Notes: generated from the letters alone by a model not told the origin. Shown: positions 1,261 through 18,509, numbered from the stretch's first letter. The stretch is 18,509 bases of DNA from a virus (IMGVR_UViG_3300039321_000032:1-18509); one strand, 5' to 3'. A program made the numbers and translations.

Positions 1261-1421
1261 TATTTAATAATATCTTTAAGCATAGTATAACGGTAAAATA
1301 AATGACATCCTGCACCAAGTGCTATGAGTACTAATGTAATCCAAAATGGAATTACTTTTACCATTAAAAATACTAAGATTATAATTACTATTGCTATTAA
1401 ATATTTCATCCAATATTTCAT
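1260..1421 (-). CDS. putative holin (53 aa, two predicted transmembrane helices)
   Basis: MKYWMKYLIAIVIIILVFLMVKVIPFWITLVLIALGAGCHLFYRYTMLKDIIK has two hydrophobic helices and a charged C-terminus. Its TAA (1260-1262) overlaps the endolysin ATG (TAATG). Below the track cutoff. Confidence 0.55.
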   Translation of the reverse strand: MKYWMKYLIAIVIIILVFLMVKVIPFWITLVLIALGAGCHLFYRYTMLKDIIK

Positions 1422-2504: not shown

Positions 2505-3188
2505 TTACTTACTCTTTTTATTGTTATCACTTGAAGGGAAATCATAAGCTCTTTGCAGAGGACCTTCACAAGAATTATATCTCCAACCTTTACCTCTAGC
2601 TCCACCTAACCAAATAGTGCAAGATGAACTTGAATACATATTTGGATACATATCTTTAAGAGGTTTATAAGAATACAATTCAGGAAAATCATTATAATAT
2701 GTAATTACCCAATTTTGCAATCTAGTTTTAAAGAAATCTGCTTTATCTCTATAATACTTCTTAATAAGATTAACTTGATTAATATCAGAAGTTAAATCTT
2801 TCTCATCATCAGTCCTCATAACCCCAAAATTACTCAGCTTAAATGAGATGGGTATAGTAATCTCACTTAATACTTGATAAAGTAAATAAGGCTGAATATA
2901 GTAATCTAGCAATTCTTTATATCTATGATTTTCTGGGTCATCTATTGAAGTAGGATCATAAATAGGAGGTTCTATTGGATGAACTGGTTTATTTGGATCT
3001 TTTCAATCAATTACTAATTTCTGAATCTTTTCTAAGAGCTTAGTTCCAATTAATGACTGAAGCTCAATATCTTGTGCAAGTTTAATTGCTGACTGAAGAT
3101 ATTTACCAGAAACATTATTGTCTAAATTGGATTCTGATTTTATATAATCTTCAGATATTAATAGTACATTTCTATAATTATTTTCCAT
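2505..3188 (-). CDS. hypothetical virion protein (227 aa; possibly a head-tail adaptor, by position after the portal)
   Basis: Track ORFs 3003..3188 and 2505..2912 share a frame and are joined by TGA 3003-3005 plus 30 open codons (...KLVID-W-KDPNKPVHPIEPPIYDPTSIDDPENHRYKELLDYYIQ...). The ATG overlaps the portal stop (TAATG). Confidence 0.7.
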
Positions 3189-4270
3189 TATTCAACTTGT
3201 TTAGTATCAGCTTCATTAAGGCTAAATGGTGAAATTGTGATTGAATTCTGCATTCCAAAGATCTTATCAAATGAATCACAAATCTCTTTCTGAATAGGTC
3301 TAATCATAGTTCTATTATAAAGCTTGAATGAAGATTCAAATTCTTGCTCATTAAAACCAGTTGAATCTGAGTTAATTCCAAATAAGTTAGGATTAGCTCT
3401 GAAGGCACAGAATATTTGATCTCTGGTTCTCTCAGATAATGATTGATATTTCTCATCAAAATCATCAGAATCTAATCTTTCAATAGTAGTCTTATTTGCC
3501 TCATCTGCATTATATGAAATCAATATTCTGCCAGCATTCTGATAACCAGAGAACTTCTCATTAATATTCCTCTCAATCTCCTCTCTAATTTCATCTGTAG
3601 GTTCCCCATTATTAAAGTTAATAATAAGATTACCCATAAATCCATTATTGATGTTATTTAAATGGAATTCATTAATATTTTTCTCAGTTTCACAAGATAA
3701 AATAGCAGCTCCATAAACAGGAATAGGATATACTCCTCTTGTTATATAACCTTTATTATAAAATATACTAGCTGGATTTTCATCCCCATCTCCAAATTTT
3801 GGATATTTTATAGCTTTTACAGACCAAGCTGTCCAATCAGTTGCATAATATAATATATCATTCTTTTCGCTTGACCTTACATTCATAAAATCAATATGAT
3901 ATATCTCTGCAACTCTTCCGAGCATATCTCTAATTACTTGGATAGCATAACCTCCAAATATCATCTTATCAATAGTGATTTTTCTCATTATATCAACTAT
4001 TGTTTCACCTTTCTTGTTTACAACTACTTCAAATCCTGGAGCATTACATTTAACATCGTTACCAACAATAAAGTCAGCAGAACCATTAATAATGGATTGG
4101 AGAGTGGCAACATTTAAATATAAATCCCATAGATATAATGGATATTTGTTATCTTCTCCCCACATTACATAATCTTTTCCCCTCACTTTAGTTTCTGTAG
4201 GTAATACGATATTACTTGCAATAAATGGATCAATAGCACTTAACTGAACTTTTGTTTTATTTTCGCTCAT
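3188..4270 (-). CDS. portal protein (360 aa)
   Basis: Size and portal-like sequence blocks (...YGAAILSCETEKNINEFHLNNINNGFMGNLIINFNNGEPTDEIREEIERNINEKFSGYQNAGRILISY... and ...RANPNLFGI...). No TGA; all 4 Trp are TGG. TAA stop. Confidence 0.75.
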   Translation of the reverse strand: MSENKTKVQLSAIDPFIASNIVLPTETKVRGKDYVMWGEDNKYPLYLWDLYLNVATLQSIINGSADFIVGNDVKCNAPGFEVVVNKKGETIVDIMRKITIDKMIFGGYAIQVIRDMLGRVAEIYHIDFMNVRSSEKNDILYYATDWTAWSVKAIKYPKFGDGDENPASIFYNKGYITRGVYPIPVYGAAILSCETEKNINEFHLNNINNGFMGNLIINFNNGEPTDEIREEIERNINEKFSGYQNAGRILISYNADEANKTTIERLDSDDFDEKYQSLSERTRDQIFCAFRANPNLFGINSDSTGFNEQEFESSFKLYNRTMIRPIQKEICDSFDKIFGMQNSITISPFSLNEADTKQVE

Positions 4271-4802: not shown

Positions 4803-5774
4803 TTAGTTTGAACTTGCTAAAGTTCAGTTTTTAGATGTAGCTAATGATTTCTGTTCTTCAGTAAGTGCATTATAAATGTTAGTATAAAAAGTTAAAGTTT
4901 TGGTATCCTTTCCAGTTAAATCACTAACATTTGTAATAATATCAGTTACTGATTGACTATTTAGTGCTCTAAAATTTGCTAAATTCATACTTTTATCAGC
5001 TCCTTCAACACCCCCAAAATAAGTAACAATAGTATTAGTAGATGCACATATTGAAGTTTTATTTAGATCTCCTGTTAATGTGCAATTATTTAATTTAATT
5101 TTTCCTACTGTTGTAACACCCTCATTATATGAACTAAAGTAATTATATAAAGATAGTTGTCCATTAATAACTTCAATTTCAGGAACATTACTGCTAACAG
5201 AATAAAAGAAAAATTGTAAAGATGATACACCAGTATCAACTTCATTTATCACTTTTAAAGTAGTTGGTAAATTAGAAGCATTAAAGAATGTTCTTGCTGC
5301 ATAATTTCAACTAGAGGATAAGGTATTAATTAATTCTAAATTATTTAGTGTGCCTTGAAATCCAGAAAATGCATACGAATCCCCAACACTAGTTCTTATA
5401 TTATCAATATATATATTATATGTGTTTTGGAAGGCATATGATGCGTTATATACTTTAGACAGATCAATATGACTTGATATATCTATTGTAGATATGAAAT
5501 TAGTCCCATCAAATCAATAATTTATATTATCTGGAAGAGAATATTCTATATTATTATATTGCTCTTGTGTCATACTAGAATGTGCAAATGTTAATCCATA
5601 ATCATTTAAATTAATCTTTCCTCCACCACCTCCAGAAATCTGTCCTATCTTATCAGCATAGCTTCTAAAGGTATCGGAATCTGATACAGCAACACCTTTA
5701 GCTACAATAGCATCTTTAATGGCACTCTTAGTACCTTCAAGATACGTTAATTTATCAGAAATTGTATTTGCCAT
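4803..5774 (-). CDS. BspA/DUF285-like leucine-rich-repeat tail protein, paralogue C (323 aa)
   Basis: Track ORFs 5514..5774 and 4824..5252 are in one frame, joined through TGAs at 5514-5516, 5307-5309 and 4824-4826, ending at TAA 4803-4805. Repeats of the YAF/MF...L type are present. The C-terminal block ...DLTGKDTKTLTF...LTEEQKSLATSKN-W-TLASSN is paralogous to 6671..7792 and 10419..11372. Confidence 0.8.
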
Positions 5775-6670: not shown

Positions 6671-7792
6671 TTATGCAACTCGATTTATACTTCAATTCTT
6701 TGAAGCTATTAATGATTTCTGTTCATTTGTAAGTTTATCATATGCAGTAGATTTTAATGATATACTTGTATAAGAAGCTACTGCTGTGCCAATAGATTCT
6801 GCTATAGTTTGTAATGAATCCGTAGATAGATTTGGAGATTGTGCAAAATAAAGAATTCCTCCTTTAGTTAAACTCTCTCCTAATCCATTTAAAGCTCCTA
6901 CAGTAACTAATTCTGGACAATTTGCAGCAAAACTAGTACAATCTGTAACAAGATGACAATCTATTTCTGGTGTAGCTGTTAATCTACTACAAGTACTAAA
7001 CATATAGCTTATATCTGTAATTCCAGTAAAGGTAAAATTACTTGGAATAGTTGTTAGATATAATGCTCTACGAAACATATGATTACAATCTCCTTTAAAG
7101 GGAATATTAATCGTTATATTATCTATATTAGTAGCTCCATCAGCTGTATCTGCAAATGCCCATTTTGGATCTACTAATACAAGATTTTGAAAATTATTCA
7201 TTACAGAGAAATCATTATTATCTATTTTTACTCCAATAAATAAATAATTTGCACTTACTTCTTTAGTAGTTGTAGGTATTTTAACATTAGATAAAGTAGC
7301 ACTATGTATTGTTTGACCCCAAAATTGAGATTCACTAGACCATTTTCCATATGCTTCATTAAGATTAGTAATCTCCTGGTTATTTAGATCAAAATGAGAT
7401 GTGTCAAAAAACCCTCCTTTTCTACTTAAATCTCCACTATTTAACTTTACATCTGCATATGTTTGAGCAGAACCTATAATACTACAAAGAGGTACACCAT
7501 CTATATTAAGGGCTAATTCACTTAAATCAGCAGTGAAGCTAATTACTGTAGAATTAGAACCAGATCCTCTACCCATTCAATCCCTTTGTATATCATTTAT
7601 AGTTCCATCATAACTGCTAAATACATAACTGCAAGGATCAACTATTGTAGTACCTTGAGGAACTGGATTAGCAACTGTAACCATCTGTGGATTACAAGGA
7701 TTGATAGGCCAGACTTTGGTACTGCCGACATAAATAGCAGTACCTTGTCTGTCACCTACATAAAATGTTTTTAAATCATCTCTAATATTCAT
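6671..7792 (-). CDS. BspA/DUF285-like leucine-rich-repeat tail protein, paralogue B (373 aa)
   Basis: Track ORFs 7577..7792 and 6692..7576 are in frame, joined by TGA 7577-7579. A second TGA at 6692-6694 extends the end to ...EQKSLIASKN-W-SINRVA, with TAA at 6671-6673. Confidence 0.75.
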
Positions 7793-7793: not shown

Positions 7794-10196
7794 TTATTCT
7801 ACAATTAAATATTGTGTATTAGGATCTTTAGTTGATAAACCATCATACTCTGATTGAGTTAGAACAGTAATAGTATTTATTTGAGGTTGGGTTCCAGTTC
7901 CAGCTTCAATATAGTTTCCAGCAGGCTGAATACCTAAATCTGATAAACTCTTATTGCCAGATAACTCAACAGAATTAATCTGAGGTTTATTTGTTAACTG
8001 AGTATAGTCAGTAGTCCCTCCACCTCCAGATATTTCGAGATTACCTTCTCCTAAAATACTTTCACCATTAATAGTCTTTATATTAGTCCCAGAGACTAAT
8101 TGCTCTTGATAACTATGATAACTAGTATCTGCTGATACTCCAGTTGGAGTAATAGTAGTTTGAACCAAAGTATGATTAGCTGTAGTACTTTCAAAATGGA
8201 AAGTAGCTTGAATATTTTCTCCTGAAACAAAACATACTTCTGGAGCTGCTATATCACCATAACCTAGAATATTTACATAATAAAGCTCAAATGGTGTTTT
8301 ATTAGCTATAGCATTCTTAACAGCAGCGAAATCTCCAGAAAGATGAGTAGTGGAATTTATAAATAGAAATGGAATATTAGAACCACTTTCAATTTCTATA
8401 TTACCTTCTCCAAGTAAAGACTGACTATTGATTGTTTTGATATTAGTTCCACTTACAAGTAAATCTTGCTTAGTAGCCATCTCTTTATCAAGTGAATCAA
8501 TCTTATTTCCATCTTCTTCTTGCTTTGTTTTAATAATTGATATGTCTGAAGTATTAGTTGCTACTTGAGTAGATAAAGATTCTACCACAGAAGAATCAGC
8601 TTTACCAGCAAGTTCTGTTTTTGTTGCATAATCTCCTACAGGCTGTTTAGTAGCAAGCTGCTCATCAACATAAGTCTTATCTGCTTTACCTGCTAAATCT
8701 CCAGAAACCTCTGCTTCAGTTACAAAGTTAGAATCATTAGTAAGCTCACTAACTTTAGTTGGAATATCACTCTTTAAAGCATAATCTCCTTTATCTTGTT
8801 TTAGATCTATTTTTCCTTCTAAAGAAGTTTCTAATGTATTAACCTTATCATTAGTTGCATAAGTAGATAAATCTACAGATAATTGAGTCTTATCTTCATT
8901 AAAAGCTAATGGAGCTTGAGGAGCAAATACTCCTTGTTTTTCCTCAAGTTTGGCATCTACTTCTTCTTTAGTATATCCTTTATTAATAAGATCAATCTCA
9001 GTAACTTTAACAGTCATATTACCATTATTTACTAAGATTGCATTAATAACTACTAATACACCATTATCTTGGAAATAATAGCCATATAAATCAATAGTTT
9101 CAGGATGTTCAATAGTTGCAACAGGAATAACTATAATATCACCTTTATATGTAATCTGGCAGAATAAATAGAAGTCCAGATTAGTTCTAATAAAGTCATA
9201 GATATGTTTCTGTCTTACAGGATCATTCTCATCTAAATTAAGTAAGAAATGATTCTCAAAAGCAGAGATTACATTATCTATAATAGATATATTCTTTCCT
9301 GCTGTAAGCGTTCCCTGTTTTGAAGCTATCTCTTTATTAATAGCTGTATTTAAAGCATCAATTTCAGCTTTGGTATATTTATCTGCTAATTGTGCGTATA
9401 GAGGGCCATTAACAATACCAGCTTGGTTAGTCTCTGTATTATATATTGGAAGTTCAACTGCTTCTCCAGTTTGATTACCAAATACAGGAGCTAAAGTAAC
9501 TTTAGATGGGACTGATTGAATATTAATGGCAGGTACGATTGAAGCTGCTCCAGATAATTCAGTTCCATTTAAAGATGGTTTGTTACGAATAGTATTATAA
9601 TCTGCAGAAATAGTATTCTCTTCAATTACTATACCATCACCTTGGTTTAATTTATTCTGTTTAGAATTTATTGCACTTTCAGTAGCTTCTTTTGTAAGAT
9701 AATTATCTTCAACTCATTTTTCAGTAGCATATCCATCTAAGCTACTAATAAACCCACTATCATTAGTTAATTGTGAAGTTTTTGTTGGTATCTCAGATTT
9801 ATCAGCTTTATTGGCAACTGCATCTGAAATTTCAGTTGTAACCTCTTCTTTAGTTGGATAATCAGCTAATCGTTCAGTTATCTGATTATCAATATTTTCA
9901 GCACTTGGAATAGTACTCTTTATTTGCTCTAACTCAGAATTAATAGTAACAATATCTTCAGATGACGCTAATCCCAACTCTTCTGAAGTCATATTACCAT
10001 TTAACTCAATACTATTGATCTCAGGTTTATCCTGAAGATCAAAATAGCTATTAGTAGCTAACTGAGAACCATCCATAACCTTAACTTCATCATCCTTGTC
10101 AATAACAATAACTTTAGTCACATTTGACTTATCTATTGTTTCGACTTCAAGGACATTAAGATAAGGAAGAATTGTCTTTTCAGTTTCGTTTGCCAT
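7794..10196 (-). CDS. tail fibre protein A (800 aa)
   Basis: Track ORFs 9714..10196 and 7794..9017 share a frame. TGA 9714-9716 (...GYATEK-W-VEDNYLTKEA...) plus 232 further codons with no TAA or TAG (checked line by line) join them. Contains fibre motifs KPEINSIELNGN, NKPSLNGTELSG, KPQINSVELSGNKSLSDLGI and VSGTNIKTING.S.LGEGN. Confidence 0.75.
8028..8102 (-). repeat. intragenic repeat, copy 2 (QLVSGTNIKTINGESILGEGNLEIS)
   Basis: Second copy of the unit at 8388-8462. The two copies bracket a 95-aa segment. Confidence 0.7.
8388..8462 (-). repeat. intragenic repeat, copy 1 (LLVSGTNIKTINSQSLLGEGNIEIE)
   Basis: 25-aa unit repeated exactly 360 nt (120 aa) downstream in the gene. The shared DNA core attaccttctcc occurs in both copies. 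Confidence 0.7.
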
Positions 10197-10197: not shown

Positions 10198-10419
10198 TTA
10201 TTTATTTTTATAAGATTCCTCTTGTTCTTTTAAATATCTTTCATTTGTTTCTGCATCAATAACCCTATAAATAGATATATCAAAGGTTAAAGGGCAATAT
10301 AAAATAGTTGATGCACTATACTCTTTAATATCATCACCTTCTTTATATGAGGTAATAAAATATCCTTCATCAGAGTATAACTTTATAAATATGCTAGTTT
10401 CAATATGTAAATGTTCCAT
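10198..10419 (-). CDS. small conserved protein, paralogue A (73 aa)
   Basis: Intact track ORF. Its ATG overlaps the LRR-A stop (TAATG at 10417-10421), and its TAA lies 1 nt before the fibre A ATG. Paralogous to 6432..6668. Confidence 0.6.
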   Translation of the reverse strand: MEHLHIETSIFIKLYSDEGYFITSYKEGDDIKEYSASTILYCPLTFDISIYRVIDAETNERYLKEQEESYKNK

Positions 10420-11372
10420 TATGCTAATATCCAGTTTTTATTAGTAGCTATTGCTTTCTGTTCATCTGATAATTTTGCCAGATTGGTAGCTCCTAATGTT
10501 AAAGTTTTGCTATTCTCCCCTGTTAAATCAACTAATGCATTAATAACAGACATTAAAGAATCAGTAGTAAGATTGGTACTTGCTGATAGATATAATCCTG
10601 CTCTAAGCTCACCGTTTACTGTAAGATTAGTAATTCCACCACATTTTGAAAATATAGGATTTATTGAACCTTCTTGATTTGTGTATGATGGAATGTTTAA
10701 TGTTACGTCTGTTAATCTAATGCAATCTCCAAACATATTAGTAGTAGTTACTAATTTAGGAGCATCTAAATTAAGTGTTTTCAGGCTATTATATCCAGGT
10801 AAGGCACCTCTGCTAAACATATTAGACCCATCTGTTAATTCAGGCATTGGAATAGTGAATGATGTTAAATCAGCACATTCTGTAAACATATATCTGCCAT
10901 CTTCTAATTTAGGCAATTGCATAGTGAACTCCTTAATGTTTGATCTTTGACATTTATATCTTCCATCAACTAAATTTTCTCAACCTACAACATTTGCAGG
11001 AACAGATGTTCCCGTAAACCTATATAAATTAACTACAGCTTGCGTAATATCATAAGTTGAAGAAGTTGGCACATTAATAGTAGCTTCAACTTTCTCCATA
11101 ACATCATAATCAGAGTCAGGAAGAATCTCTATTGGTCCATTCTGAGTAATTGTAATTGCTTTGGAAGCTTGAACTGTAGGAACTACTACATCAACAGATA
11201 CATTTACCTTAGACATTCCATCATATCCCTCATCTGGCAGTACTTCAAACTCTGCATTTTGAGTATATTCTACTGATTTTTCTTGTAACTTACATTCAGC
11301 AGCTTTAATTAAATCTAAATTTTTAGTTGTAGTATTTTTAGCTACTGGTTCTGATGTGAATACTATTGCCAT
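10419..11372 (-). CDS. BspA/DUF285-like leucine-rich-repeat tail protein, paralogue A (317 aa)
   Basis: Track ORFs 10980..11372 and 10419..10922 are in frame, joined by TGA 10980-10982 plus 19 open codons. N-terminal tandem units (...EFEVLPDEGYDGMSKVNVSVDV / ...PIEILPDSDYDVMEKVEATINV) precede the LRR repeats (MFTECADLTSF, NMFGDCIRLTDV). The C-terminus ...SDEQKAIATNKNWILA uses TGG for its Trp. Confidence 0.8.
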
Positions 11373-11425
11373 ATTATTTTTCTATAAAATATAAATTATT
11401 CATTATGTGGTATATAAACAAAATA

Positions 11426-11453
11426 AGGGGCAAGTAAATTAATACTCGCCCCT
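11426..11453 (-). terminator. intrinsic terminator after the head-module operon
   Basis: Minus-strand stem AGGGGCGAGTA/TACTTGCCCCT (one A/C mismatch, 6-nt loop) followed by TATTTTGTTTAT. It starts 11 nt after the TAA at 11464. Confidence 0.65.
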
Positions 11454-11463
11454 CTTTCTGTTA

Positions 11464-11988
11464 TTAAGCACCTACAACGCTTTGGATAGCTTCTGCAGAT
11501 AACTCATAAGGATAAGAATCTGAATCTGTTGAAAGTGTCAGAGTATAAGCATTCTGATCACCTTTAGCAGTACCAGTAACACCCGTACCAGCGGAAGCGC
11601 TTACATAATCATCTTTACCTAAGAACCAATACTTACCATTGCTATCTTCAACAACAACTGCAAGCTGACCAATTGATAAAGCTGCAATCTCTACTCGTTT
11701 TGCTGTTTCCATCTTTGTAAATACAAGAGCAAGCTCATTACTTACATAATTAACACCAGCACTTTCATCTACATTTAAAGTTGAGGTTAGAGAACCAGTA
11801 GCCTTTCTAAATTGGTAGTTATACCATTTAGCTGAAGACTCAAGAGTAATAGCTGAAATCATATTGCTCTCAGGATCAACCGTTACACTTTTAACATCTG
11901 CATACTGGGTAATCCATACCTGTTTGATTCCACCCAATGAAGGTTGGCAATCAAGTGTGATTCCTGCGATAGTTATTAAACAAGCCAT
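11464..11988 (-). CDS. abundant structural protein (174 aa; major tail or head-associated protein, function uncertain)
   Basis: Intact track ORF directly after the capsid gene and before a terminator. Higher GC than its surroundings, no TGA, TAA stop. Confidence 0.7.
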   Translation of the reverse strand: MACLITIAGITLDCQPSLGGIKQVWITQYADVKSVTVDPESNMISAITLESSAKWYNYQFRKATGSLTSTLNVDESAGVNYVSNELALVFTKMETAKRVEIAALSIGQLAVVVEDSNGKYWFLGKDDYVSASAGTGVTGTAKGDQNAYTLTLSTDSDSYPYELSAEAIQSVVGA

Positions 11989-12028
11989 AATTTCAATATC
12001 ATTTAGAAGTTAATAAAATCTATTGAAA

Positions 12029-12934
12029 TTAAGCCTTGGCGCCTAATACTACTTCGTCAGGGAAAGCAACTTGTACACCAGCGTTAAATTCAATAGCTAA
12101 TCTGAACTCGCGGAAATCCTGTGAATACCACAATTCGAATTTCTCTTCATCGTTCATCATATCTACACCATAGAAGAAGTTCTTGTCTAACTGACCAGCA
12201 ACAATCTTATCAGTTCCATTAAGACCATTAACAGCAATAACCTTAACCTGTGAACCAGGAAGATAAATCTCACCATTAAGGCTCTCTCCGCTATAGTGGA
12301 AATAGTTCTTCTCAACAAGTTCATTTACGAACTTACGGAACATATCGGCACCAACAAGAATCGAAGCACCATCAAGAACCTTCTCAGGAATTGCATTATA
12401 AACTGCCATAATATCAGTATAGGCAGATTCTCCAGCAATTTCTACATCTACAGTACCATTATCAGCAGCAAGAATCTTAAGCAGACCATCAAAATACTTC
12501 AAGTTATTAGTTTCTGAAGCCGTATCACCCTGCCAGATAGCTACCTCAATAGCCTCTTTTACGTTCTCTACAACAGCATTTACGAAATCCTCTTCAAAAG
12601 GAAGAGTCTTCTGACCAGCGGCTACCTTAACTGCATACTGAGTCCAGTATTTCAGCATAGCCTTATCGCAATATGCCATATTAATCTTAATATTACCAGT
12701 CTTAAGAATTCTCTGAGAAAGAGTCTGAGTTCCAGCCTCATCCCAACCACAAGTAAGACCATCACCGAACTGAACATCGGTAGATAACAGGTTAAGAGCA
12801 GCATCAGTTTTAATATCTGTCTGAAGATTAAACAAACTTGCACTCTTAGCTTTTAAAACCGCTTCCTTAATAAGAGGGAGACGTCTTTGCTCCACATAAG
12901 CAGGAAGAGTTGTCATTACAGGACTATTTGCCAT
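12029..12934 (-). CDS. major capsid protein (301 aa, HK97-fold type by size, position and sequence character)
   Basis: Intact track ORF following protease and scaffold. All 4 Trp are TGG, no TGA, TAA stop. Confidence 0.8.
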   Translation of the reverse strand: MANSPVMTTLPAYVEQRRLPLIKEAVLKAKSASLFNLQTDIKTDAALNLLSTDVQFGDGLTCGWDEAGTQTLSQRILKTGNIKINMAYCDKAMLKYWTQYAVKVAAGQKTLPFEEDFVNAVVENVKEAIEVAIWQGDTASETNNLKYFDGLLKILAADNGTVDVEIAGESAYTDIMAVYNAIPEKVLDGASILVGADMFRKFVNELVEKNYFHYSGESLNGEIYLPGSQVKVIAVNGLNGTDKIVAGQLDKNFFYGVDMMNDEEKFELWYSQDFREFRLAIEFNAGVQVAFPDEVVLGAKA

Positions 12935-12955
12935 AATTATTTAAAATTTTATAAA

Positions 12956-13561
12956 TTAACCAATAAAGTTTTTAAGCTTTCTATCTATTTCTGCTATTCC
13001 ACTTATAGGAGCAGTTGTTTTATTTTCGAGTGTTTCCTCTGCTGAAAAAGCAGCACTCATCTTACTCATTTTTTCTACAGTCTTTTCAGTAGCTTCTGAC
13101 TTTCCTTCAAGTTCTGCTACTTTCTTAACAAGCTTATCTACAATATCATAGAGCTCATTAATTTCGCGATGAATAGCGTCGATTGCATCAGTCTCAGTTT
13201 CTTTAACACCGTCTGTTTCAACAGCAGGATCAGCAACTTCCTCAGCTTTTACTCTCTTAGTTCCACAAGCAGCATCAACCTCAACAGTTCTCATACCCTC
13301 ATCTGGATCAACTTCAGCTTTAGGATCAGTAATGGACTCTACTTTACCGTCTTTAACAACAATAGTTTTGCCATCTTCGGTAACATACTCACCATCAGCA
13401 GCAGGTGCATATTCGCCATTTTCATCAGCTACATAAACATCCATACCTTCTTTCAGATCCTCATCCGAATCCCAAGTAAGCACAGCCTTGTCAGTTTTAA
13501 CATCACTGAACTTTGCAAGCATCTTAGCTAACTCAAGTTTAATTTTTGTGAATTTACTCAT
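12956..13561 (-). CDS. scaffolding protein (201 aa, acidic, coiled-coil C-terminus)
   Basis: Located between the protease and capsid genes. Asp/Glu/Lys-rich low-complexity sequence (...DPKAEVDPDEGMRTVEVD... / ...REINELYDIVDKLVKKVAELEGKSEATEKTVEKM...). Confidence 0.65.
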   Translation of the reverse strand: MSKFTKIKLELAKMLAKFSDVKTDKAVLTWDSDEDLKEGMDVYVADENGEYAPAADGEYVTEDGKTIVVKDGKVESITDPKAEVDPDEGMRTVEVDAACGTKRVKAEEVADPAVETDGVKETETDAIDAIHREINELYDIVDKLVKKVAELEGKSEATEKTVEKMSKMSAAFSAEETLENKTTAPISGIAEIDRKLKNFIG

Positions 13562-13567
13562 AATTAA

Positions 13568-14161
13568 TTAATGTTTAACTCTTTTTATTTTTCTCAACAT
13601 TTTTTGAATCTCTTTAAGTTCCTCATATTCATCAGATTGTCTTTCTAAAGTAAACAATCCCTCAATAGATAACCCTTTAAACTTTCCAGCTTTAATTGCA
13701 TCCCATATAACAGGATTATTTACTTTATAAGTAGCAAATAATGAACCATCTGGACAATCAGCAAATTCAACTGGATTAATTCCTCTATCTATATCTTTAA
13801 CATATAGTTCTTGAAGAATTATTCCAGGAATTACTGAATCTTCCAAATGTTCAATATTTACATCAGTAGTTCTCTTATCATACATCATTTTTTCAGCCAT
13901 TAAACGGAGAGTTTCTTTATCATATTGAATATAATATTCTCCGTTTTTACTATCCCGTCTAAATATAGGTATATCACATACCATTAAACAAGAAGTAACT
14001 ATATGTTTTTCTTCATCCATCGAGAACTTCTGAGATTCCCCAAAAGCAAGCCAATTAACTTGGGTTGCAGGTTTACTGGTCAATGCTACGAACTCTATTC
14101 CATCACAATCATCAGCAATAATTGCTTGATATAATGGAAGATCATTATACATTTTTTCCAT
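13568..14161 (-). CDS. prohead protease, XkdF-like (197 aa)
   Basis: First gene of the head module. The layout ...DVNIEHLEDSVIPGIILQELYV...GSLFATYKVNNPVIWDAIKAGKFKGLSIEGLF resembles XkdF-type phage serine proteases, recognised by eye only. Confidence 0.65.
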   Translation of the reverse strand: MEKMYNDLPLYQAIIADDCDGIEFVALTSKPATQVNWLAFGESQKFSMDEEKHIVTSCLMVCDIPIFRRDSKNGEYYIQYDKETLRLMAEKMMYDKRTTDVNIEHLEDSVIPGIILQELYVKDIDRGINPVEFADCPDGSLFATYKVNNPVIWDAIKAGKFKGLSIEGLFTLERQSDEYEELKEIQKMLRKIKRVKH

Positions 14162-14238
14162 TTTTTATTAATATATAAGCTATTTTAAAAATGTAATATT
14201 GTTACAATCTTTTATTTTTATATATTTATATACTATCA

Positions 14239-14258
14239 AATGTCAAGTTTTTTACTCA
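14239..14258 (-). promoter_or_regulatory. conserved 20-nt intergenic motif, copy 2 (candidate promoter of the head module)
   Basis: Identical to 4750-4769. On the minus strand, TTGACA is followed by 16-18 nt and then TATATA/TATAAA, about 55-60 nt upstream of the protease ATG at 14161. A degenerate third copy (TGAGTAAAA-N4-TGACA) lies at 14337-14354. Confidence 0.45.
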
Positions 14259-14292
14259 AATTTGTATCTAAGATAAATAAATTTTGACATAG

Positions 14293-14336
14293 CACTACTA
14301 TATAAGCACTGATAATCAGCAACTTACATAGTAGTG
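14293..14336 (-). terminator. long stem-loop after the tape-measure gene (putative terminator or RNA structure)
   Basis: 14-bp arms CACTACTATATAAG (14293-14306) / CTTACATAGTAGTG (14323-14336). The single non-Watson-Crick position is a G-U wobble on the minus-strand transcript but an A-C mismatch on the plus strand. The loop carries an inner CTGA/TCAG palindrome. It starts 21 nt after the TAA at 14357. Confidence 0.45.
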
Positions 14337-14356
14337 TGTCAGAAATTTTACTCACT

Positions 14357-17116
14357 TTAGAAACTTGCATTTGATTCTGTAACTGCAACTTTAGTTTGAG
14401 CATTAGTAATATCACTCTCAACTACATAGCATTTAACAGGTTCATTTAATAAATCAGTCTCTTTATCACCAAGTAAGTTTCGAGTGTATTCTACAGGAGT
14501 AGTGTTTAAAGCAGCAGGTGCTGCAACAGATGCAGAAGCAGAAGATGCAGATGCTCCACTAGTTTCATCTACTTCTCAAATCTTTTTAACATTAGCTATA
14601 CCAGCTGCAATTGCTGCAGCAGCGGCGGCAGCACCTAAAGCTGGACCTACAACTGGAATACCAGCCATTGCAGAATAAGCACTGTTAGCTGCACTATATG
14701 TATCAATTAAAGCTTGAGCTGTTGCGAATCCTTTACCTACTTTACTTTCCTCTCCTCATATAGTTGCCATACTTCCTGCAACCTTTGATGCTAGATCAAG
14801 GCGAGCTTTTATAGATTCTTGATATTGCTTATTAACATTTTCTCTAACTTTGTTTTTCTTATTTTCTCTGTCTATTTCATTTTCAGTTAATTGCTCATCA
14901 ATAGAATCTAATTCTAGTTTAATAAGTTTTCTCTGATCAGCTGTTAAAGTCTCATTTTCTAATTGTTTTAATAGAAAAGACTTCTGCTCCTCCAATCTTG
15001 TTTTTATTTGATTATTATATTTATCTATAGAACCTTCTTCAGTATCTGTTCCTAATAAACGATCTTTATATCCCTCTATGTCTTTTTTGCTTGAATAAGA
15101 GAACTCACCACTTAATCCAAATATTTTGGCAAATCCTTGTGTATATTGAGTTTTAGGAATTTCTAAAGATGGATCTTTTATATCATACCTTGCCTCGCGC
15201 ATTCTTTTTAACTCAGTCTGCAGATCATCTCAAGCTTTATCCGCAGCACTTTTTCTTGCATTTTCTTCATCTTCTCTAGCTTTATCTCTAATTTTCTTCA
15301 GCTCTTCTTGATGCCAAGCCTCAACTTCTTCAATACTTCTATTATTTTTAATAGCTAGTGCTAATAGTCTAATATATTCATCTTCAAGTTCATCTACTGG
15401 GTCTTTATCCTCTAATCTCTTTTGAAGCCATTCATCAAATTCATTTATTACCTTCTTAGCTTCAGTAGTGTTCTTTGTAATAGTTGGAATATTAAAGAAC
15501 CCACCATACTTTTTATTAGTATCTGCTACATCCTCAAATAGCTTTTTAATCCTTTTCTCAATGTCTTTATTTAAATCATCCAACTGTTTATAAGTATTCT
15601 CTTTATTTTGCTTTGTATACTCATAAATTGTATTTGAATAATCTTTTCAGAACATTGCTGTAGCTTTAAAAGCCTGCCAAGCAGATGCCTCTCCAAAGCT
15701 TGTATCAGAAATTTGATTCTCCAGTTCAGTACGTTTATTTAAATACTCCTCATAAAGCTTAATTGCAGCCTGTTCAATAGCCTGAGCTTTTGCTCTTGCA
15801 GTTAATGCTTCTACATAATTACCAGTATTATTTACAAACGCATCTTCTGCAGTCTTTACATTAGTAATATTTAAACCAGTCTCTTTAATCTTATCGGAAT
15901 ATTGCTCTATAAACTTACGCTTAGCATCTGCAGAATCTCCAACCCTTTCGTAAGCTATTTGTAACTCTCTAAAGATAGCTATAGATTTAGAAGCAATCTG
16001 ATTAGTAGTATCTGTAATAGACTTTCTAAATTCAGCAGCCTCCTTTTCAGCTGATTTTATTGAGGATATATACTCTATTATCTTATTAATAGCTACTCCA
16101 ATAGCTGTAGCTAATGCAATTCATACAGTTACATTACCAATAGTTTTAAGTGCAGTTTTAACTTTACCTACTCCAGAAGCAGCTTGTTCTGAAGCTTCAG
16201 CCATTGCTTTCTGAGCCTCTGCCCCTTTTCGCAAAGTTGGAATGCCTTTTTCTACATTTTCCTTTAATTCAGCAAGATCTACACCTAAACGTTTAGCAGC
16301 TTTCTGCATTCTCTCTGCTGGAGTTCCAGTCTCTTTTGCTGCTTCCTTTAAAAATTCAGCAACTGTAGTAACTGTAGGTTTTACTTCTTCAAAGGACTTT
16401 TTTGCAGTTTCTCCTAATTTACCTATAATCGGAATCGTATTAGATACACTCTTATTAGTAGCAGATATTTCAGCAGGAGTGCCCATTACTCCTTGAATCA
16501 TACCTCCTTTAAAATTAATATTGGTGCCTTCTAAATCCTTGACTACTTTAGAGATATTACCTAATTCAGTTCCAACATTACCAACAGATGTGCCAATGCC
16601 ATTAAGCTTAGATGCATCAATCTGATTAAGATTTTTGGCAGCATTATTCAACCCTGTATTAAATGGAGAGATAAAATCAGTTAATTTCTTAAACCAATTA
16701 CCTAAAGTAGGCAATTCTTCTAATAAATCTTTTATACCTCCAATACCTTGTACTAATGCAATAGATGACTGTAACTTAACCATTACTTTATTTAAATCTT
16801 CTGATTCTTTCCCAAATAAAGTAATAGCAGCAGTTGCAGCTCCATATCCACTGGCCAAACCAGTGGATATTTTAGCTACACTTTCAAACCTTTGAGCAGT
16901 AGTTCTTGAAGATCTTGCTATCTGCTCATTAATTTTATTGAACTCTGATTGTCTTTTACCTAGTAATGCAAGAGTTTCATTATATTCCTTAGTACCAATC
17001 TCTAAATCATTCAGAGAACTAGATAATGCGTCAATATCTTTCTTTAAAGAGTTTATTGATTTATTACTTGATTTAGTATCAATACTAATAACCTTTTTAA
17101 TTTCTGTTTGTGCCAT
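14357..17116 (-). CDS. tape-measure-like protein (919 aa)
   Basis: Track ORFs 16121..17116, 15230..15583 and 14756..15202, plus an unlisted C-terminal part, are one frame through five TGAs (16121-16123, 15647-15649, 15230-15232, 14756-14758, 14576-14578), ending at TAA 14357-14359 (checked line by line). Long coiled-coil stretches and Gly/Ala-rich hydrophobic segments (GLASGYGAATAAITLFG; GIPVVGPALGAAAAAAAIAAGIA) are typical of tape-measure proteins. Confidence 0.75.
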
Positions 17117-18509
17117 TAGATTGTAATATTTTTAACAGTATCTTCTGTTAGTGTTAAATTCTCTGTATATTTAACTGTTCCTGTAGGTCCATCAGTCACT
17201 TCAAATTTAAACTGAACACCTTTTTGAGCATATATTCTATAATTTCCATTATCCTGCATATAAGCCACATTCAAGAAGTTATCGTTTTCTGTAAGTATCT
17301 GATTTACCCCAGTTGGTATAGTGCCACTTGGAGTTTCTAATTTGCCTGTAATAAGAACAGCTTTATTTGGGTCTGGAGTTTGAGTAAACATACATTTAGG
17401 ACCATCTACGCCTCCTTGTTTATAAAGACTAAAGTAGAAACTCCTTTGATTATATGTAGTATTCTCATTATAAGTAACTGTTAATTCTGTTTCTCCAGGT
17501 TGCCCAGATTCAGGTGTAATGCTTACAATTTCATTTGGACTATATCATCCTAATTCTCAAGGAATATTAGAAGTAACTGTAATCTTTTTAGTCCCAGCTT
17601 TATAATCTACAACTGGATCTGAATCATCAAATGATATATATTCACCTAGATTTTGAACTCCAGCTAAATAACTATTAATATCTTGAACTTTAATAAATTC
17701 ACATCTAACTGTAGAATCTGAATTAATATCATAAGCATCAATCTTATTAAGTATCCAGTAAGAATCTTCAAAATAATAGAACTGTCTAAGTAAATCATAC
17801 TTAACATCTAAATCATCCAATCTTACAAAACAAGTAACTTTCTTAGTATTAACATCAAATTGATCATTATAAAATTCACTTCAGAATCTACTATAAATAG
17901 TACTTCCGATATTATAAGTTATATCATCAATATAAATCTCTTGTGGTAATCCAAAATCTCAAGAAGCAGTAACATTAGAGGACGAAACGGTATACCTTGT
18001 AAATTGAGGTAATACAGTTCTCTTTATAGCAATTTTATTCCCACTAATATCTTTCTCACTTTTAGTAGATATATAACACATTTCCTGATCATTTAATATG
18101 TTCATTTCTGTAAGATCATCTGTAATTCAATATGTTACTTCATTTCCTTTTACATCAGTTAAAGGAACATTACCGTTAAAGAATACTAGGGATTGAGAGA
18201 TATCCTCTAAAGATTCCTCATTACCATCAATTGAGAAAAATACATTTTTGGCAAATATATCATTACCTGCGATTTTATATCATTCTGTGGTTTTAGAGGG
18301 ATCTATAAAATTAGCTCCGTATAACTCTTGATCTATAGTCTTAAGTTCAGTAGTGCTATTATTAAATAATGTATAGGTAATATTATCATTCATAAATGCA
18401 GGAACTACAAGGGAAGAAGAATTGTAAAAATTTCTAAAATATTTATTTCTCCATCTTGCAGAAACTATATTTTCATATATATTATCACTATACAGTTCAG
18501 TTGTTTCAG
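17116..18509 (-). CDS. tail-associated structural protein with C-terminal BACON/Ig-like domain (over 464 aa, 5' end outside the window)
   Basis: One frame is open from the right window edge to TAA 17116-17118 if six TGAs are sense (18280-18282, 18127-18129, 17959-17961, 17881-17883, 17557-17559, 17545-17547). It absorbs track ORFs 17557..17820 and 17116..17391. ITVTSNIPWELGWYSPNEIVSITPESGQPGETELTVTYNENTTYNQRSFYF matches the BACON-type pattern. The stop overlaps the tape-measure ATG (TAATG). Confidence 0.75.

What the first reader, a model, noticed from the sequence alone, without database searches (positions are those of the whole stretch)
11464..14161. Head-core genes are completely TGA-free while tail, fibre and lysis genes use TGA for most Trp
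Protease, scaffold, capsid, the 174-aa protein (11464-14161) and the portal (3188-4270) together span about 1233 codons. They contain 14 Trp, all TGG, and no TGA. The 11 TGA-using genes (about 3950 codons) have 26 TGA versus 18 TGG. At that rate roughly 8 TGAs would be expected in the head core. The head core can therefore be translated under the standard code, whereas tape measure, BACON-domain tail protein, all three LRR proteins, fibre A and the lysis genes need TGA suppression. That is the pattern expected if recoding acts as a translational gate on late or lytic functions, as proposed for recoded gut phages. Spot counts on individual 60-nt lines give about 38-45% GC for scaffold/capsid/174-aa versus about 23-38% elsewhere. 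Mosaic origin or codon optimisation is therefore an alternative explanation.
Basis: seen in the sequence. Interest (0 to 1): 0.75.

Follow-up and report, generated by a model that had tools for sequence, protein, structure and literature searches.

The report
TGA-free capsid genes in recoded phage
In a common ~30 kb human-gut phage that reads the stop codon TGA as tryptophan, the capsid and probable tail-tube genes consistently avoid TGA, but the portal and protease do not in close relatives, so this is ordinary uneven codon use and not a switch separating head from tail production.

Summary
The counts are exact. Protease, scaffold, capsid, the 174-aa protein and portal hold 0 TGA and 14 TGG. 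TGA encodes Trp.

The window belongs to a very common, mosaic ~30 kb gut phage. It has no detectable suppressor tRNA. A syntenic relative (L036) has no TGA at all.

Across about 37 distinct recoded relatives, capsid, scaffold and p174 (a probable tail tube, not a head protein) stay TGA-free. Capsid plus p174 show 1 TGG/TGA change against 6.5 expected (p=0.011). The "head core" is not a unit, though. Portal W37 is TGA in 15 of 37 relatives, one with a 99% identical portal. Protease W153 is TGA in 4 of 29. TGG/TGA changes in these genes, and in tail and lysis genes, occur at the neutral synonymous rate. A divergent recoded relative carries TGA at invariant capsid and tube Trp sites.

The raised GC and codon bias of capsid and p174 are also present in the standard-code relative, so they are not mosaic.

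Best reading: TGA spread neutrally after recoding and is selected against only in the highest-copy virion proteins. This is a known kind of system with a modest nuance.

The parts
17116..18509 (-). Distal-tail protein with a BACON-like domain (partial; runs off the right end of the window). 6 TGA / 2 TGG.
   Evidence: Open frame under code 4. BACON_2 match is sub-threshold, E=0.004. Family total 219 TGA / 309 TGG, and every member has at least 1 TGA.
14357..17116 (-). Tape-measure-like protein, 919 aa. 5 TGA / 4 TGG.
   Evidence: No Pfam family found. The label rests on coiled-coil composition and an Ala/Gly-rich C-terminus. Family TGA fraction 0.39.
14162..14356 (.). AT-rich non-coding spacer of 195 nt upstream of the protease gene. 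Possible promoter region for the protease-to-p174 unit.
   Evidence: Sequence read. Promoter-like matches are not above the shuffle expectation. This role is inference only.
13568..14161 (-). Prohead protease (XkdF-like, Peptidase_S78_2), 197 aa. 0 TGA / 2 TGG in the window.
   Evidence: Pfam E=3.3e-7. W153 is TGA in 4 of 29 distinct relatives.
12956..13561 (-). Scaffold-like protein, 201 aa. 0 TGA / 1 TGG. GC 0.38.
   Evidence: Position and composition only; no Pfam family found. Family total 0 TGA / 24 TGG in 36 distinct sequences.
12029..12934 (-). Major capsid protein, 301 aa. 0 TGA / 4 TGG. GC 0.396. Strongest codon bias in the window (G-ending fraction 0.62 over the Lys/Glu/Gln/Leu(TTR)/Arg(AGR) codon pairs).
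   Evidence: PHROG 11320 and 1623. All four ancestral Trp columns are TGG in 37 distinct relatives. No TGG/TGA change against about 4 expected.
11464..11988 (-). p174, probable major tail-tube protein. 0 TGA / 3 TGG. GC 0.38.
   Evidence: AF2 model with pLDDT 60 and a beta-sandwich plus helix. Top Foldseek PDB hits are nearly all tail-tube or Hcp proteins, but weak (E 5e-3 to 0.1, TM 0.3-0.4). Weak homologues occur only in Bacteroides and Nonlabens phages, again right after the capsid gene in Nonlabens phage P12024S. Family total 1 TGA / 92 TGG.
11425..11454 (-). Intrinsic-terminator-like hairpin directly after p174: 12-bp stem with 6 G-C pairs, followed by a T-rich tail.
   Evidence: Present after p174 in all 16 distinct downstream sequences of relatives. 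Two stem variants differ by compensatory changes.
10419..11372 (-). LRR protein, 317 aa. 1 TGA / 1 TGG.
   Evidence: LRR_5 match is sub-threshold, E=0.0011. Counts.
7794..10196 (-). Tail fibre, 800 aa. 1 TGA / 0 TGG.
   Evidence: Phage_tail_C tip domain, E=1.2e-9. Counts.
6671..7792 (-). LRR-like paralogue, 373 aa. 2 TGA / 4 TGG. The Trp of its C-terminal 'KNW' motif is TGA at 6694.
   Evidence: The same motif is TGA in LRR323 (4826) and TGG in LRR317.
4803..5774 (-). LRR-like paralogue, 323 aa. 3 TGA / 0 TGG.
   Evidence: Family TGA fraction 0.80.
3188..4270 (-). Portal protein, 360 aa. 0 TGA / 4 TGG in the window.
   Evidence: Pfam Phage_portal, E=4e-16. Three of four Trp columns are polymorphic TGA/TGG in relatives, and 18 of 37 distinct relatives have at least 1 TGA.
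2505..3188 (-). DUF6712 protein, 227 aa (head-completion or adaptor candidate). 1 TGA / 3 TGG.
   Evidence: Pfam E=1e-10. Family TGA fraction 0.14.
2078..2503 (-). p141, function unknown. 0 TGA / 1 TGG.
   Evidence: Family TGA fraction 0.10.
1425..2078 (-). Protein of 217 aa with a hydrophobic N-terminal stretch (a putative TM segment, judged by eye), next to the lysis genes. 4 TGA / 2 TGG.
   Evidence: 35 of 35 relatives have at least 1 TGA, and one column is fixed for TGA.
1260..1421 (-). Holin-like small hydrophobic protein (putative membrane protein), 53 aa. 0 TGA / 2 TGG.
   Evidence: 0 of 17 distinct relatives have TGA. The function is inferred from position and hydrophobicity only (one search found no family).
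808..1260 (-). Endolysin (Peptidase_M15_3), 150 aa. 1 TGA / 2 TGG.
   Evidence: Pfam E=3e-14 and PHROG 894. 30 of 30 relatives have at least 1 TGA.
482..805 (-). HNH endonuclease, 107 aa. 1 TGA / 0 TGG.
   Evidence: Pfam HNH. Counts.
6..167 (+). Small ORF (53 aa) on the early-operon strand, downstream of the helicase-like gene in relatives. Its single Trp is TGA at 69.
   Evidence: TGA in 16 of 16 distinct relatives, never TGG. Whether it is a real gene was not tested.

Best explanation
The window is the late region of a very common ~30 kb human-gut tailed phage that reads TGA as tryptophan.

Proposed history and mechanism:
1. The lineage descends from low-GC ancestors that used TGA neither as a stop nor as a sense codon. 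Every Trp codon therefore started as TGG.
2. After recoding, TGG->TGA changes and newly arisen TGA Trp codons accumulated at roughly the neutral synonymous rate in most genes. This includes portal, protease, head-completion proteins, terminase, tail, fibre and lysis genes.
3. In the proteins made in the largest numbers per virion, TGA is removed by purifying selection. These are the major capsid protein, the probable tail-tube protein p174 and probably the scaffold.
4. These same genes carry the strongest G- and C-ending codon bias. They sit in a unit that ends with a conserved terminator.

The inferred reason is that decoding TGA is slower or leakier than decoding TGG. Each TGA then costs a fraction of the product, and that cost scales with the number of copies needed.

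On this reading, the complete absence of TGA from portal and protease in this particular window is sampling luck. It is not a designed 'standard-code head core'.

Shown: the counts, TGA = Trp, the ancestral state, conservation across relatives, and the neutral-rate comparison.
Inferred: the cost of TGA decoding, the expression levels, and the host's genetic code.
For: Recoding and codon identity:
- Only TGA-as-sense gives dense coding.
- TGA-containing alignment columns also contain TGG in 87 of 163 cases. Otherwise they hold mostly Tyr or Phe; Gly is the majority in only 4.

Ancestral state:
- L036 is fully syntenic. Apart from one doubtful antisense ORF it has no in-frame TGA and no TGA stop.
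- Trp columns shared with L036 have a TGA fraction of 0.17, against 0.37 for newer Trp columns.

Conservation across distinct relatives:
- Capsid 0 TGA / 147 TGG in 37 sequences.
- Scaffold 0/24.
- p174 1/92.

Rate test:
- Capsid plus p174: 1 TGG/TGA change against 6.5 expected from Lys/Glu/Gln A/G changes in the same genes (Poisson p=0.011).
- Portal, protease, p227 and p141: 21 against 13.6-16.3 expected.
- Tail and lysis genes: 71 against 58-81 expected.

Gradient of TGA fraction: capsid, scaffold and tube about 0; protease 0.07; p141 0.10; portal and p227 0.14; tail proteins 0.3-0.4; TerL 0.61; homing endonucleases 0.65.

Expression signature:
- Capsid and p174 have the highest G-ending (0.66, 0.45) and C-ending (0.35, 0.25) codon fractions.
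- The same bias is present in standard-code L036 and in L095.
- A conserved terminator hairpin with compensatory variants follows p174.

p174 as tail tube.
Against: - The numbers of Trp sites are small (4 in capsid, 3 in p174, at most 1 in scaffold). The key tests reach only p of about 0.01, and the grouping is partly post hoc.
- Across all 30 families, TGA fraction does not correlate with codon-bias proxies (Spearman rho -0.06 to -0.26, not significant).
- Some TGA-free genes have no codon bias and are not obviously high-copy. These are the helicase-like rep573, the 79-aa protein with a hydrophobic N-terminus (p79TM) and the holin-like gene. They need a different reason, such as early expression.
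- In the divergent recoded relative L095, both capsid (W97) and tube carry one TGA, so avoidance is not absolute.
- No difference in the base after the codon was found between TGA and TGG. There is therefore no direct sign that release factor competes at sense TGAs.
- Expression levels and the cost of TGA decoding were not measured.
- The identification of p174 as tube rests on a low-confidence model.
Confidence: 0.55

Rival explanations
1. Translational gate. The phage infects a standard-code host. Genes without TGA (head core, helicase) are translated before a code switch. TGA-containing tail, fibre and lysis genes are held back until TGA suppression is established.
For: - The general model is published for recoded gut phages (Borges et al. 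preprint).
- In the window all five head genes are intact under table 11.
- The helicase-like early gene is TGA-free in 20 of 21 relatives despite A-rich codon use (0 changes against 2.6-3.8 expected).
- Endolysin (30 of 30) and the hydrophobic-N-terminus protein beside the lysis genes (p217TM, 35 of 35) always keep at least 1 TGA, each with one column fixed for TGA.
- Homing endonucleases are the most TGA-rich genes, as reported for Agate phages.
- About half of the genes carry TGA. That lies within the 26-71% range reported for phages of standard-code hosts.
- No abundant gut bacterium is known to read UGA as Trp (PMC8629427).
Against: - Portal and protease carry TGA at conserved Trp sites in many close relatives, and those codons flip at the neutral rate.
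- TerL and TerS carry TGA. Heads could not be filled before the switch anyway.
- The holin-like gene is never recoded.
- A small ORF in the early operon and the regulators that follow the first rightward gene carry TGA.
- The TGA-free head genes lie on the same strand between TGA-rich tail genes, with no sign of separate timing.
- L095 has TGA in capsid and tube.
- No suppressor tRNA, release factor or TrpRS was found to perform a switch.
Confidence: 0.12
2. Chance plus slow turnover. Capsid, scaffold and tube have few Trp codons and all are ancient. They have simply not yet been hit by TGG->TGA changes, and no selection is involved.
For: - Only 8 Trp codons are involved in these three genes in the window.
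- Trp columns inherited from the TGA-less ancestor are TGA-poor in general (0.17).
- Capsid and p174 are the most conserved proteins (mean identity 0.92-0.93).
- L095 shows that these sites can hold TGA.
- The agnostic window test gives only p=0.011.
Against: - Within the same genes and the same sequences, synonymous A/G changes at Lys/Glu/Gln codons are frequent: 51 changes at 48 capsid sites.
- That rate predicts about 6.5 TGG/TGA changes in capsid plus p174, and 1 is seen (p=0.011).
- The TGA-free state holds in 37 distinct capsid sequences, although recombination shuffles the family extensively.
Confidence: 0.2
3. Mosaic origin. The higher-GC scaffold-capsid-p174 block was recently acquired from a standard-code phage and therefore lacks TGA.
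For: - Local GC is 0.38-0.40 against about 0.30 elsewhere.
- The family is highly mosaic at the nucleotide level.
Against: - The same GC rise and C- or G-ending codon bias in capsid and p174 is present in the standard-code relative L036 and in the divergent recoded relative L095. It is therefore an old, intrinsic property of these genes.
- Most of the rise is in first codon positions, which reflects amino-acid composition.
- All 38 loci with a capsid at least 88% identical belong to recoded genomes. The nearest non-recoded capsid is only 66% identical.
Confidence: 0.04
4. The host itself reads TGA as Trp (a native code-4 host). No switch or gate exists, and the gene-to-gene differences are ordinary codon bias.
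For: - No tRNA of any kind was found in 37 loci that together cover whole genomes, and there was no Rfam hit.
- TGA occurs in early-operon, regulatory, terminase, structural and lysis genes alike.
- TGG/TGA behaves as a neutral synonymous change in most genes.
- There is no context bias at sense TGAs.
Against: - A survey of more than 250,000 genomes found UGA->Trp only in Mycoplasmatales/Entomoplasmatales and insect symbionts. The gut order RF39 uses UGA as a stop (PMC8629427).
- This phage is extremely prevalent in human-gut data (single protein clusters on 120-255 contigs).
- Its nearest cultured relatives infect Bacteroidota.
- The TGA share of Trp codons (42%) is well below the A-ending share of other two-fold codons (about 70%).
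- The helicase-like gene specifically avoids TGA.
Confidence: 0.1

Closest known systems
TGA->Trp (code 4) recoded phages of human and animal gut microbiomes, e.g. the Agate and Jade clades (Borges et al. 2021/2022; preprint 10.1101/2021.08.26.457843)
   Same: - Low-GC genome with in-frame TGA read as Trp.
- TGA is concentrated in structural, lysis and homing-endonuclease genes and is nearly absent from the replication gene.
- A close standard-code relative with depleted TGA exists.
- No suppressor tRNA was detected, as in about 65% of code-4 genomes in that study.
   Different: - The genome is much smaller (~30 kb against about 127 kb for Agate).
- It has no tRNA at all, and no release factor or TrpRS was recognised among its genes.
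- The clade is not named in that work as far as I could check.
- The specific pattern seen here (major capsid, scaffold and tube TGA-free, 12-copy head proteins intermediate) is not described in the preprint, which never uses the word capsid.
TAG->Gln (code 15) crAss-like phages validated by metaproteomics (Peters et al. 2022, PMC9523058)
   Same: - Gut phages with a late-gene bias for a reassigned stop codon.
[quoted passage not shown]
   Different: - A different codon and amino acid.
[quoted passage not shown] Capsid avoidance is therefore probably not a general rule of recoded phages.
Translational selection on codon usage in highly expressed phage structural genes (general principle; e.g. 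T7 capsid codon-deoptimisation studies, PMC5592923, seen only as a title and abstract)
   Same: The capsid gene has the strongest codon bias in the genome, and the disfavoured codon is avoided where the most protein is needed.
   Different: Here the disfavoured codon is a reassigned stop. The presumed cost is termination or slow near-cognate decoding, not just a rare tRNA. That cost was not measured.
Codon capture of UGA in Mycoplasma (Osawa-Jukes model; summarised in PMC8629427)
   Same: L036 looks like the predicted intermediate: low GC, with TGA absent as both a stop and a sense codon. Its sister lineages have TGA re-appearing as Trp.
   Different: This is a phage lineage and not a cellular genome. 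The decoding machinery is not encoded in the genome, and the host probably still uses UGA as a stop.

Membership tests
Code-4 (TGA->Trp) recoded gut phages | In-frame TGA is required for full-length genes, and coding density rises only when TGA is read as sense. | tested here: met
   ORFs of 80 aa or more total 7381 aa when TGA is sense, against 4831 aa under table 11. The minus strand is then densely tiled. All gene models have no internal TAA or TAG.
Code-4 (TGA->Trp) recoded gut phages | TGA aligns with Trp, not Gly, in homologues. | tested here: met
   87 of 163 TGA-containing columns also hold TGG. The majority other residue is W in 67, Y in 16, F in 13 and G in 4. The same Trp site is TGG or TGA in near-identical portals.
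Code-4 (TGA->Trp) recoded gut phages | Close standard-code relatives exist with depleted TGA. | tested here: met
   L036 is syntenic, has 28% GC, no TGA stops, and 1 in-frame TGA (in a doubtful antisense ORF) against 44 TGG.
Code-4 (TGA->Trp) recoded gut phages | A phage-encoded suppressor tRNA(UCA), or RF1 or TrpRS. This is common but not universal; about 35% of code-4 genomes have the tRNA. | tested here: not met
   ARAGORN found 0 tRNAs in the window and in 37 loci that together cover whole genomes. Rfam at E<=1 gave no tRNA or ribozyme. No RF or TrpRS was seen among the ORFs that were listed, but only part of the gene set was annotated.
Code-4 (TGA->Trp) recoded gut phages | The host uses the standard code. 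| tested here: inconclusive
   No prophage or host junction was found; the 148-kb and 193-kb contigs look like concatemers. Hits in genome bins are only 41-55% identical and taxonomically mixed. The nearest isolates infect Bacteroidota. No abundant gut lineage with UGA->Trp is known.
Recoding as a gate on late or lysis genes (Borges model) | Early and replication genes are free of the recoded codon. | tested here: inconclusive
   The helicase-like rep573 is TGA-free in 20 of 21 relatives. The 53-aa ORF in the same operon always has TGA, and the regulators after the first rightward gene have TGA fractions of 0.28-0.73.
Recoding as a gate on late or lysis genes (Borges model) | All lysis genes carry the recoded codon. 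| tested here: not met
   Endolysin 30 of 30 and p217TM (the hydrophobic-N-terminus protein beside the lysis genes) 35 of 35 carry TGA. The holin-like 53-aa gene carries it in 0 of 17, despite two conserved Trp codons.
   At least 1 TGA in portal in 18 of 37 relatives and in protease in 4 of 29. Capsid 0 of 37 and scaffold 0 of 36. L095 has TGA at capsid W97.
Tail-tube proteins (lambda gpV / SPP1 gp17.1 / Hcp fold), for p174 | Beta-sandwich with a flanking helix and a long hairpin, with structural similarity to solved tube proteins. | tested here: inconclusive
   The AF2 model has pLDDT 60 and pTM 0.62. Most of the top 20 Foldseek hits are tail-tube or Hcp-type proteins, the rest being other tail, neck or connector components, but the matches are weak (E 5e-3 to 0.2, TM 0.3-0.4). 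No Pfam match was found.
Head module of tailed phages (portal, protease, major capsid protein) | Recognisable portal, maturation protease and major capsid protein. | tested here: met
   Phage_portal E=4e-16 and Peptidase_S78_2 E=3e-7. Capsid matches PHROG 11320 (E=8e-23) and PHROG 1623, a 'virion structural protein'. The capsid fold itself was not modelled.

The most novel reading that the evidence does not exclude
A very abundant 30-kb gut phage reads TGA as Trp in a standard-code host without any suppressor tRNA. It would do so through a protein-based or host-tRNA-based mechanism, for example neutralising RF2 so that the host tRNA-Trp reads UGA.

Under that mechanism read-through is only partial. 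The number of TGAs in a gene then acts as a built-in attenuator that sets virion stoichiometry: zero in capsid, scaffold and tube, zero or one in 12-copy head proteins, and several in low-copy tail proteins.

The few genes that are always TGA-free and lie next to the divergent early promoter region would be the shortlist for the switch factor. These are the helicase-like rep573 and the 79-aa protein p79TM.
Probability: 0.12. Interest if true: 0.8.

Novelty: new member of a known kind. Interest (0 to 1): 0.33.

Why it matters
Stop-codon-recoded gut phages are known, and so is the uneven placement of the recoded codon. This finding adds no new kind of system.

What the work contributes:
- The tidy "standard-code head core" seen in one genome disappears when relatives are compared.
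- What remains is a deficit of TGA in the highest-copy virion proteins.
- If that deficit also appears in independent recoded clades, it would be indirect evidence that decoding a reassigned stop is costly during infection. That bears on how complete the code switch is.

The clade is also a convenient small model for an open question, namely how code-4 phages without a suppressor tRNA get TGA decoded. It has about 45 genes and no tRNA, it is very prevalent, and it has a TGA-less sister lineage.

Tried and rejected
1. Host identification.
- The genome-contig scan with a capsid alignment gave only 41-55% identical hits in mixed MAG bins: Lachnospiraceae, Bacillales, Bacteroidaceae, Chitinophagaceae and Methanosphaera. 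This is uninformative and probably reflects mis-binned phage contigs.
- Two very long contigs (148 kb and 193 kb) looked like possible prophages. They read as concatenated phage genomes.

2. Suppressor tRNA or other RNA.
- ARAGORN on the window and 37 loci, and Rfam at E<=1 on 57 kb, found nothing relevant.

3. Codon bias as a general predictor of TGA avoidance.
- No significant correlation across 30 gene families.
- Codon bias explains capsid and p174 only. It does not explain the helicase-like gene, the holin-like gene or p79TM.

4. Termination-context test.
- The base after sense TGA against the base after TGG shows no difference (chi-square p=0.53).

5. Mosaic origin of the GC-rich block.
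- Rejected because L036 and L095 show the same local composition.

6. Cultured relatives.
- The capsid has no match in 50,697 GenBank phage records.
- The portal and p174 match only weakly, to Nonlabens and Bacteroides phages.

7. Promoter scan around the head module.
- Matches are not above the shuffle expectation.

8. Literature.
- Searches found no prior statement that capsid genes avoid the recoded codon. They also found no description of this clade.

Full report
**What the window is**

The 18.5-kb window has about 30% GC, and nearly all of its genes lie on the minus strand. Only a code in which TGA is a sense codon gives a dense tiling of long ORFs. ORFs of 80 aa or more total 7381 aa with TGA as sense, against 4831 aa under table 11.

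Reading from high to low coordinates, the genes are:
- a distal-tail protein with a sub-threshold viral BACON match, which runs off the right end
- a 919-aa tape-measure-like protein
- an XkdF-like protease
- a scaffold-like protein
- the major capsid protein
- the 174-aa protein p174
- three LRR-like paralogues interleaved with fibre proteins
- the portal
- a DUF6712 protein and p141
- a 217-aa protein with a hydrophobic N-terminal stretch (p217TM)
- a 53-aa holin-like gene
- an M15 endolysin
- an HNH endonuclease

Three small ORFs at the left end lie on the plus strand.

**Check of the observation**

- Protease, scaffold, capsid, p174 and portal span 1233 codons with 0 TGA and 14 TGG.
- The eleven TGA-using genes span 3949 codons with 26 TGA and 18 TGG.
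- The whole window has 26 TGA and 36 TGG.
- The five genes are intact ORFs under table 11.

The significance depends on the test.
- Shuffling codon labels over all Trp codons, with no prior grouping, gives p=0.011 for 18 or more Trp codons falling in TGA-free genes.
- The chi-square heterogeneity test on the earlier 16-gene, 58-codon set gives p=0.026.

The GC statement holds for scaffold, capsid and p174 (0.38-0.40). It does not hold for protease and portal (0.30).

**TGA means Trp**

Evidence from the gene families built from relatives:
- 87 of 163 alignment columns that contain TGA also contain TGG.
- Where they do not, the majority residue is mostly Tyr, Phe or Leu. Gly is the majority in 4 columns.
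- Portals 95-99% identical to the window's have TGA exactly where the window has TGG.

There is also evidence inside the window. The C-terminal "KNW" motif of the three LRR paralogues is TGA in two and TGG in one.

**The phage family**

- A capsid search of IMG/VR returned 56 loci and a portal search returned 41. Genomes are about 30 kb, mostly from human-gut data.
- Single p174 protein clusters occur on 120-255 contigs, so the phage is very prevalent.
- Relatives are strongly mosaic at the nucleotide level.
- Outside the window, the genome holds a divergently transcribed helicase-like gene (rep573) with a few small ORFs, a short set of regulators, TerS and TerL, two more tail proteins, and many inserted GIY-YIG or HNH homing endonucleases.
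- No integrase was noticed among the listed ORFs.

No tRNA was found in the window or in 37 loci that together cover whole genomes. Rfam at E<=1 gave nothing relevant. How TGA is decoded is therefore not visible in the genome. This is also the case for about 65% of code-4 phages in the Borges et al. survey.

**Ancestral state**

Locus L036 has a capsid 66% identical to the window's and 28% GC. It is syntenic over the whole late region. Tables 4 and 11 give identical ORFs for it. No gene ends in TGA, and the only in-frame TGA lies in a doubtful antisense ORF, against 44 TGG.

The recoded lineage therefore descends from phages in which TGA was essentially unused. Every old Trp codon was TGG, and TGA codons are derived. 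This fits two further results:
- Trp columns shared with L036 have a TGA fraction of 0.17.
- Trp columns not shared with it have 0.37.

**Do relatives keep the head genes TGA-free?**

The answer is split. Counts below are over distinct nucleotide sequences in the recoded clade.

| Gene | TGA / TGG | Sequences with at least 1 TGA |
|---|---|---|
| Capsid | 0 / 147 | 0 of 37 |
| Scaffold | 0 / 24 | 0 of 36 |
| p174 | 1 / 92 | 1 of 31 |
| Portal | 23 / 139 | 18 of 37 |
| Protease | 4 / 51 | 4 of 29 |

Details for portal and protease:
- Portal W37 is TGA in 15 of 37 sequences. These include L090, whose portal is 99% identical to the window's (L090:10109), and L068.
- Portal W48 and W146 also flip.
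- Protease W153 is TGA in 4 of 29 sequences, for example at position 9225 of L016, L018 and L020.

In the more distant recoded relative L095 (capsid 67% identical), the invariant capsid Trp W97 is TGA at L095:3890. One p174 Trp is TGA at L095:4733.

**Is the capsid and p174 deficit more than slow turnover?**

I built a neighbour-joining tree for each family. By parsimony I counted TGG/TGA changes at conserved Trp columns and A/G changes at conserved Lys/Glu/Gln columns of the same genes.

| Gene set | TGG/TGA changes observed | Expected from A/G rate |
|---|---|---|
| Capsid + p174 | 1 | 6.5 (Poisson p=0.011) |
| Portal, protease, p227, p141 | 21 | 13.6-16.3 |
| Ten tail, fibre and lysis families | 71 | 58-81 |
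| Helicase-like rep573 | 0 | 2.6-3.8 |

In most genes, then, TGA and TGG behave as freely interchangeable synonyms. Only capsid plus p174, and perhaps the helicase, show a deficit. Recombination makes the trees approximate, and the number of Trp sites is small. I treat this as moderate evidence.

**What distinguishes the TGA-free genes**

p174 is probably the tail tube.
- The AlphaFold model is of modest confidence (pLDDT 60).
- Its top Foldseek hits in the PDB are almost all tail-tube or Hcp proteins (lambda gpV, SPP1, Milano, Mu), with weak scores.
- Its only sequence relatives among isolates are in Bacteroides and Nonlabens phages. In Nonlabens phage P12024S the homologue again sits directly after the likely capsid gene.

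Capsid, scaffold and tube are the proteins needed in the largest numbers per virion. That follows from general knowledge of tailed-phage architecture.

Capsid and p174 also have the strongest G-ending (0.66, 0.45) and C-ending (0.35, 0.25) codon preference in the genome. The same local GC and codon bias is present in standard-code L036 and in L095. The composition is therefore an old property of these genes, which rules out recent mosaic acquisition.

A 12-bp G+C-rich hairpin followed by a T-rich tail lies directly after p174 (window 11425-11454, minus strand). It is present in all 16 distinct downstream sequences of relatives. Two stem variants differ by compensatory changes. This fits a transcription unit that ends after the high-copy genes.

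The TGA fraction rises in the order:
- capsid, scaffold and tube: about 0
- protease: 0.07
- p141: 0.10
- portal and p227: 0.14
- tail proteins: 0.3-0.4
- TerL: 0.61
- homing endonucleases: 0.65

This order is what selection proportional to protein demand would give.

The explanation is not complete.
- Across all 30 families, TGA fraction does not correlate with codon-bias measures.
- The holin-like gene, the 79-aa protein p79TM and the helicase are TGA-free without any codon bias.

**The gate model**

Parts of the published gate model do fit.
- The one replication gene avoids TGA.
- Every endolysin (30 of 30) and every p217TM protein (35 of 35) keeps at least one TGA, each with one column fixed for TGA.
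- Homing endonucleases are the most recoded genes, as reported for Agate phages.

The specific proposal of a head core translated under the standard code, with tails and lysis gated, does not fit.
- Portal and protease carry TGA in many relatives.
- TerL and TerS carry TGA.
- The holin-like gene never does.
- A small ORF in the early operon always does.
- The TGA-free genes sit between TGA-rich genes on the same strand.

**Host**

I could not identify the host.
- The two very long contigs that carry the phage look like concatenated phage genomes.
- Hits in genome bins are distant and taxonomically mixed.

Two indirect points favour a standard-code host, possibly in the Bacteroidota.
- A survey of more than 250,000 genomes found UGA->Trp only in Mycoplasmatales/Entomoplasmatales and insect symbionts. 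The gut order RF39 uses UGA as a stop (PMC8629427).
- The nearest isolated relatives of the portal and p174 infect Nonlabens and Bacteroides.

A test for weak-termination context after sense TGAs was negative. This neither supports nor excludes competition from a release factor.

**Verdict**

Its "head versus tail" framing is not.
- One member of the TGA-free group, p174, is probably a tail protein.
- Two members, portal and protease, are TGA-free only by sampling.
- One lysis gene is TGA-free as well.

The best-supported reading has three parts. TGA accumulated neutrally after recoding from a TGA-less ancestor. Purifying selection acts against TGA in the highest-copy virion proteins. A separate, weaker signal shows avoidance in the early helicase-like gene.

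This is a new member of a known class, the code-4 gut phages with uneven recoding. It adds a modest nuance and raises one unexplained point: no suppressor tRNA is present.

Noticed in passing
window 11425-11454 (minus strand); also downstream of the p174 gene in relatives, e.g. contigs 093071, 046576 and 105798: A strong intrinsic-terminator-like hairpin lies immediately after the p174 gene. It is conserved in all 16 distinct relatives. Two stem variants (GAGGGGCGAGTA/TACTTGCCCCTT and GAGCGGGTAA/TTACTCGCTCTT) differ by compensatory changes.
   Followed up: partly
whole window and loci L001-L095: No tRNA gene and no Rfam family were found in any genome of this TGA-recoded ~30 kb phage clade. 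How TGA is decoded is not visible in the sequence.
   Followed up: partly
L036:1-20716: This is a fully syntenic relative (capsid 66% identical, 28% GC). It uses TGA neither as a stop nor as a sense codon, apart from one TGA in a doubtful antisense ORF. It looks like the 'codon capture' intermediate next to a recoded sister lineage.
   Followed up: partly
relatives, e.g. merged contig 119598 at 9595-10206, 16501-17049 and 18186-18851; L030:10941-11708: GIY-YIG and HNH homing endonucleases are inserted at varying places between structural genes: protease/scaffold, capsid/p174, portal/p227. They are the most TGA-rich gene family (168 TGA / 90 TGG). A preferentially recoded intron endonuclease was likewise reported for Agate phages.
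   Followed up: partly
window 6-167 (+), TGA at 69; relatives: 53-aa ORF downstream of the helicase-like gene: This small ORF in the early, oppositely transcribed operon has its single Trp as TGA in 16 of 16 distinct relatives, never TGG. Elsewhere in the genome, Trp codons flip freely. Endolysin, p217TM, p144, p108TM and LRR373 also each have one column fixed for TGA.
   Followed up: no
relatives: helicase-like 573-aa gene on the opposite strand (e.g. merged contig 119598 at 23503-25224), just left of the window: The only recognisable replication gene avoids TGA (1 TGA / 95 TGG) although its other codons are strongly A-ending. This is the clearest signal consistent with a gate in this clade.
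   Followed up: partly
window 3188-4270 against 11464-17116, and relatives: The module order is unusual. Terminase, then tail and tape-measure genes, come before the protease-scaffold-capsid-tube block. The portal lies about 8 kb further downstream, after the fibre genes.
   Followed up: no
window 4826, 6694 and the C-terminus of the gene at 10419-11372: Three LRR-like paralogues end in a shared 'KNW' motif. Its Trp is TGA in two copies and TGG in the third. This is evidence from inside the window that TGA encodes Trp.
   Followed up: yes
L030/L089 (IMGVR_UViG_3300045988_175865, 148 kb) and L106 (193-kb ENA scaffold): Very long contigs that carry this phage contain more than one genome length of phage genes in series. 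They appear to be concatemeric or strain-mixture assemblies and not prophages in host DNA.
   Followed up: partly
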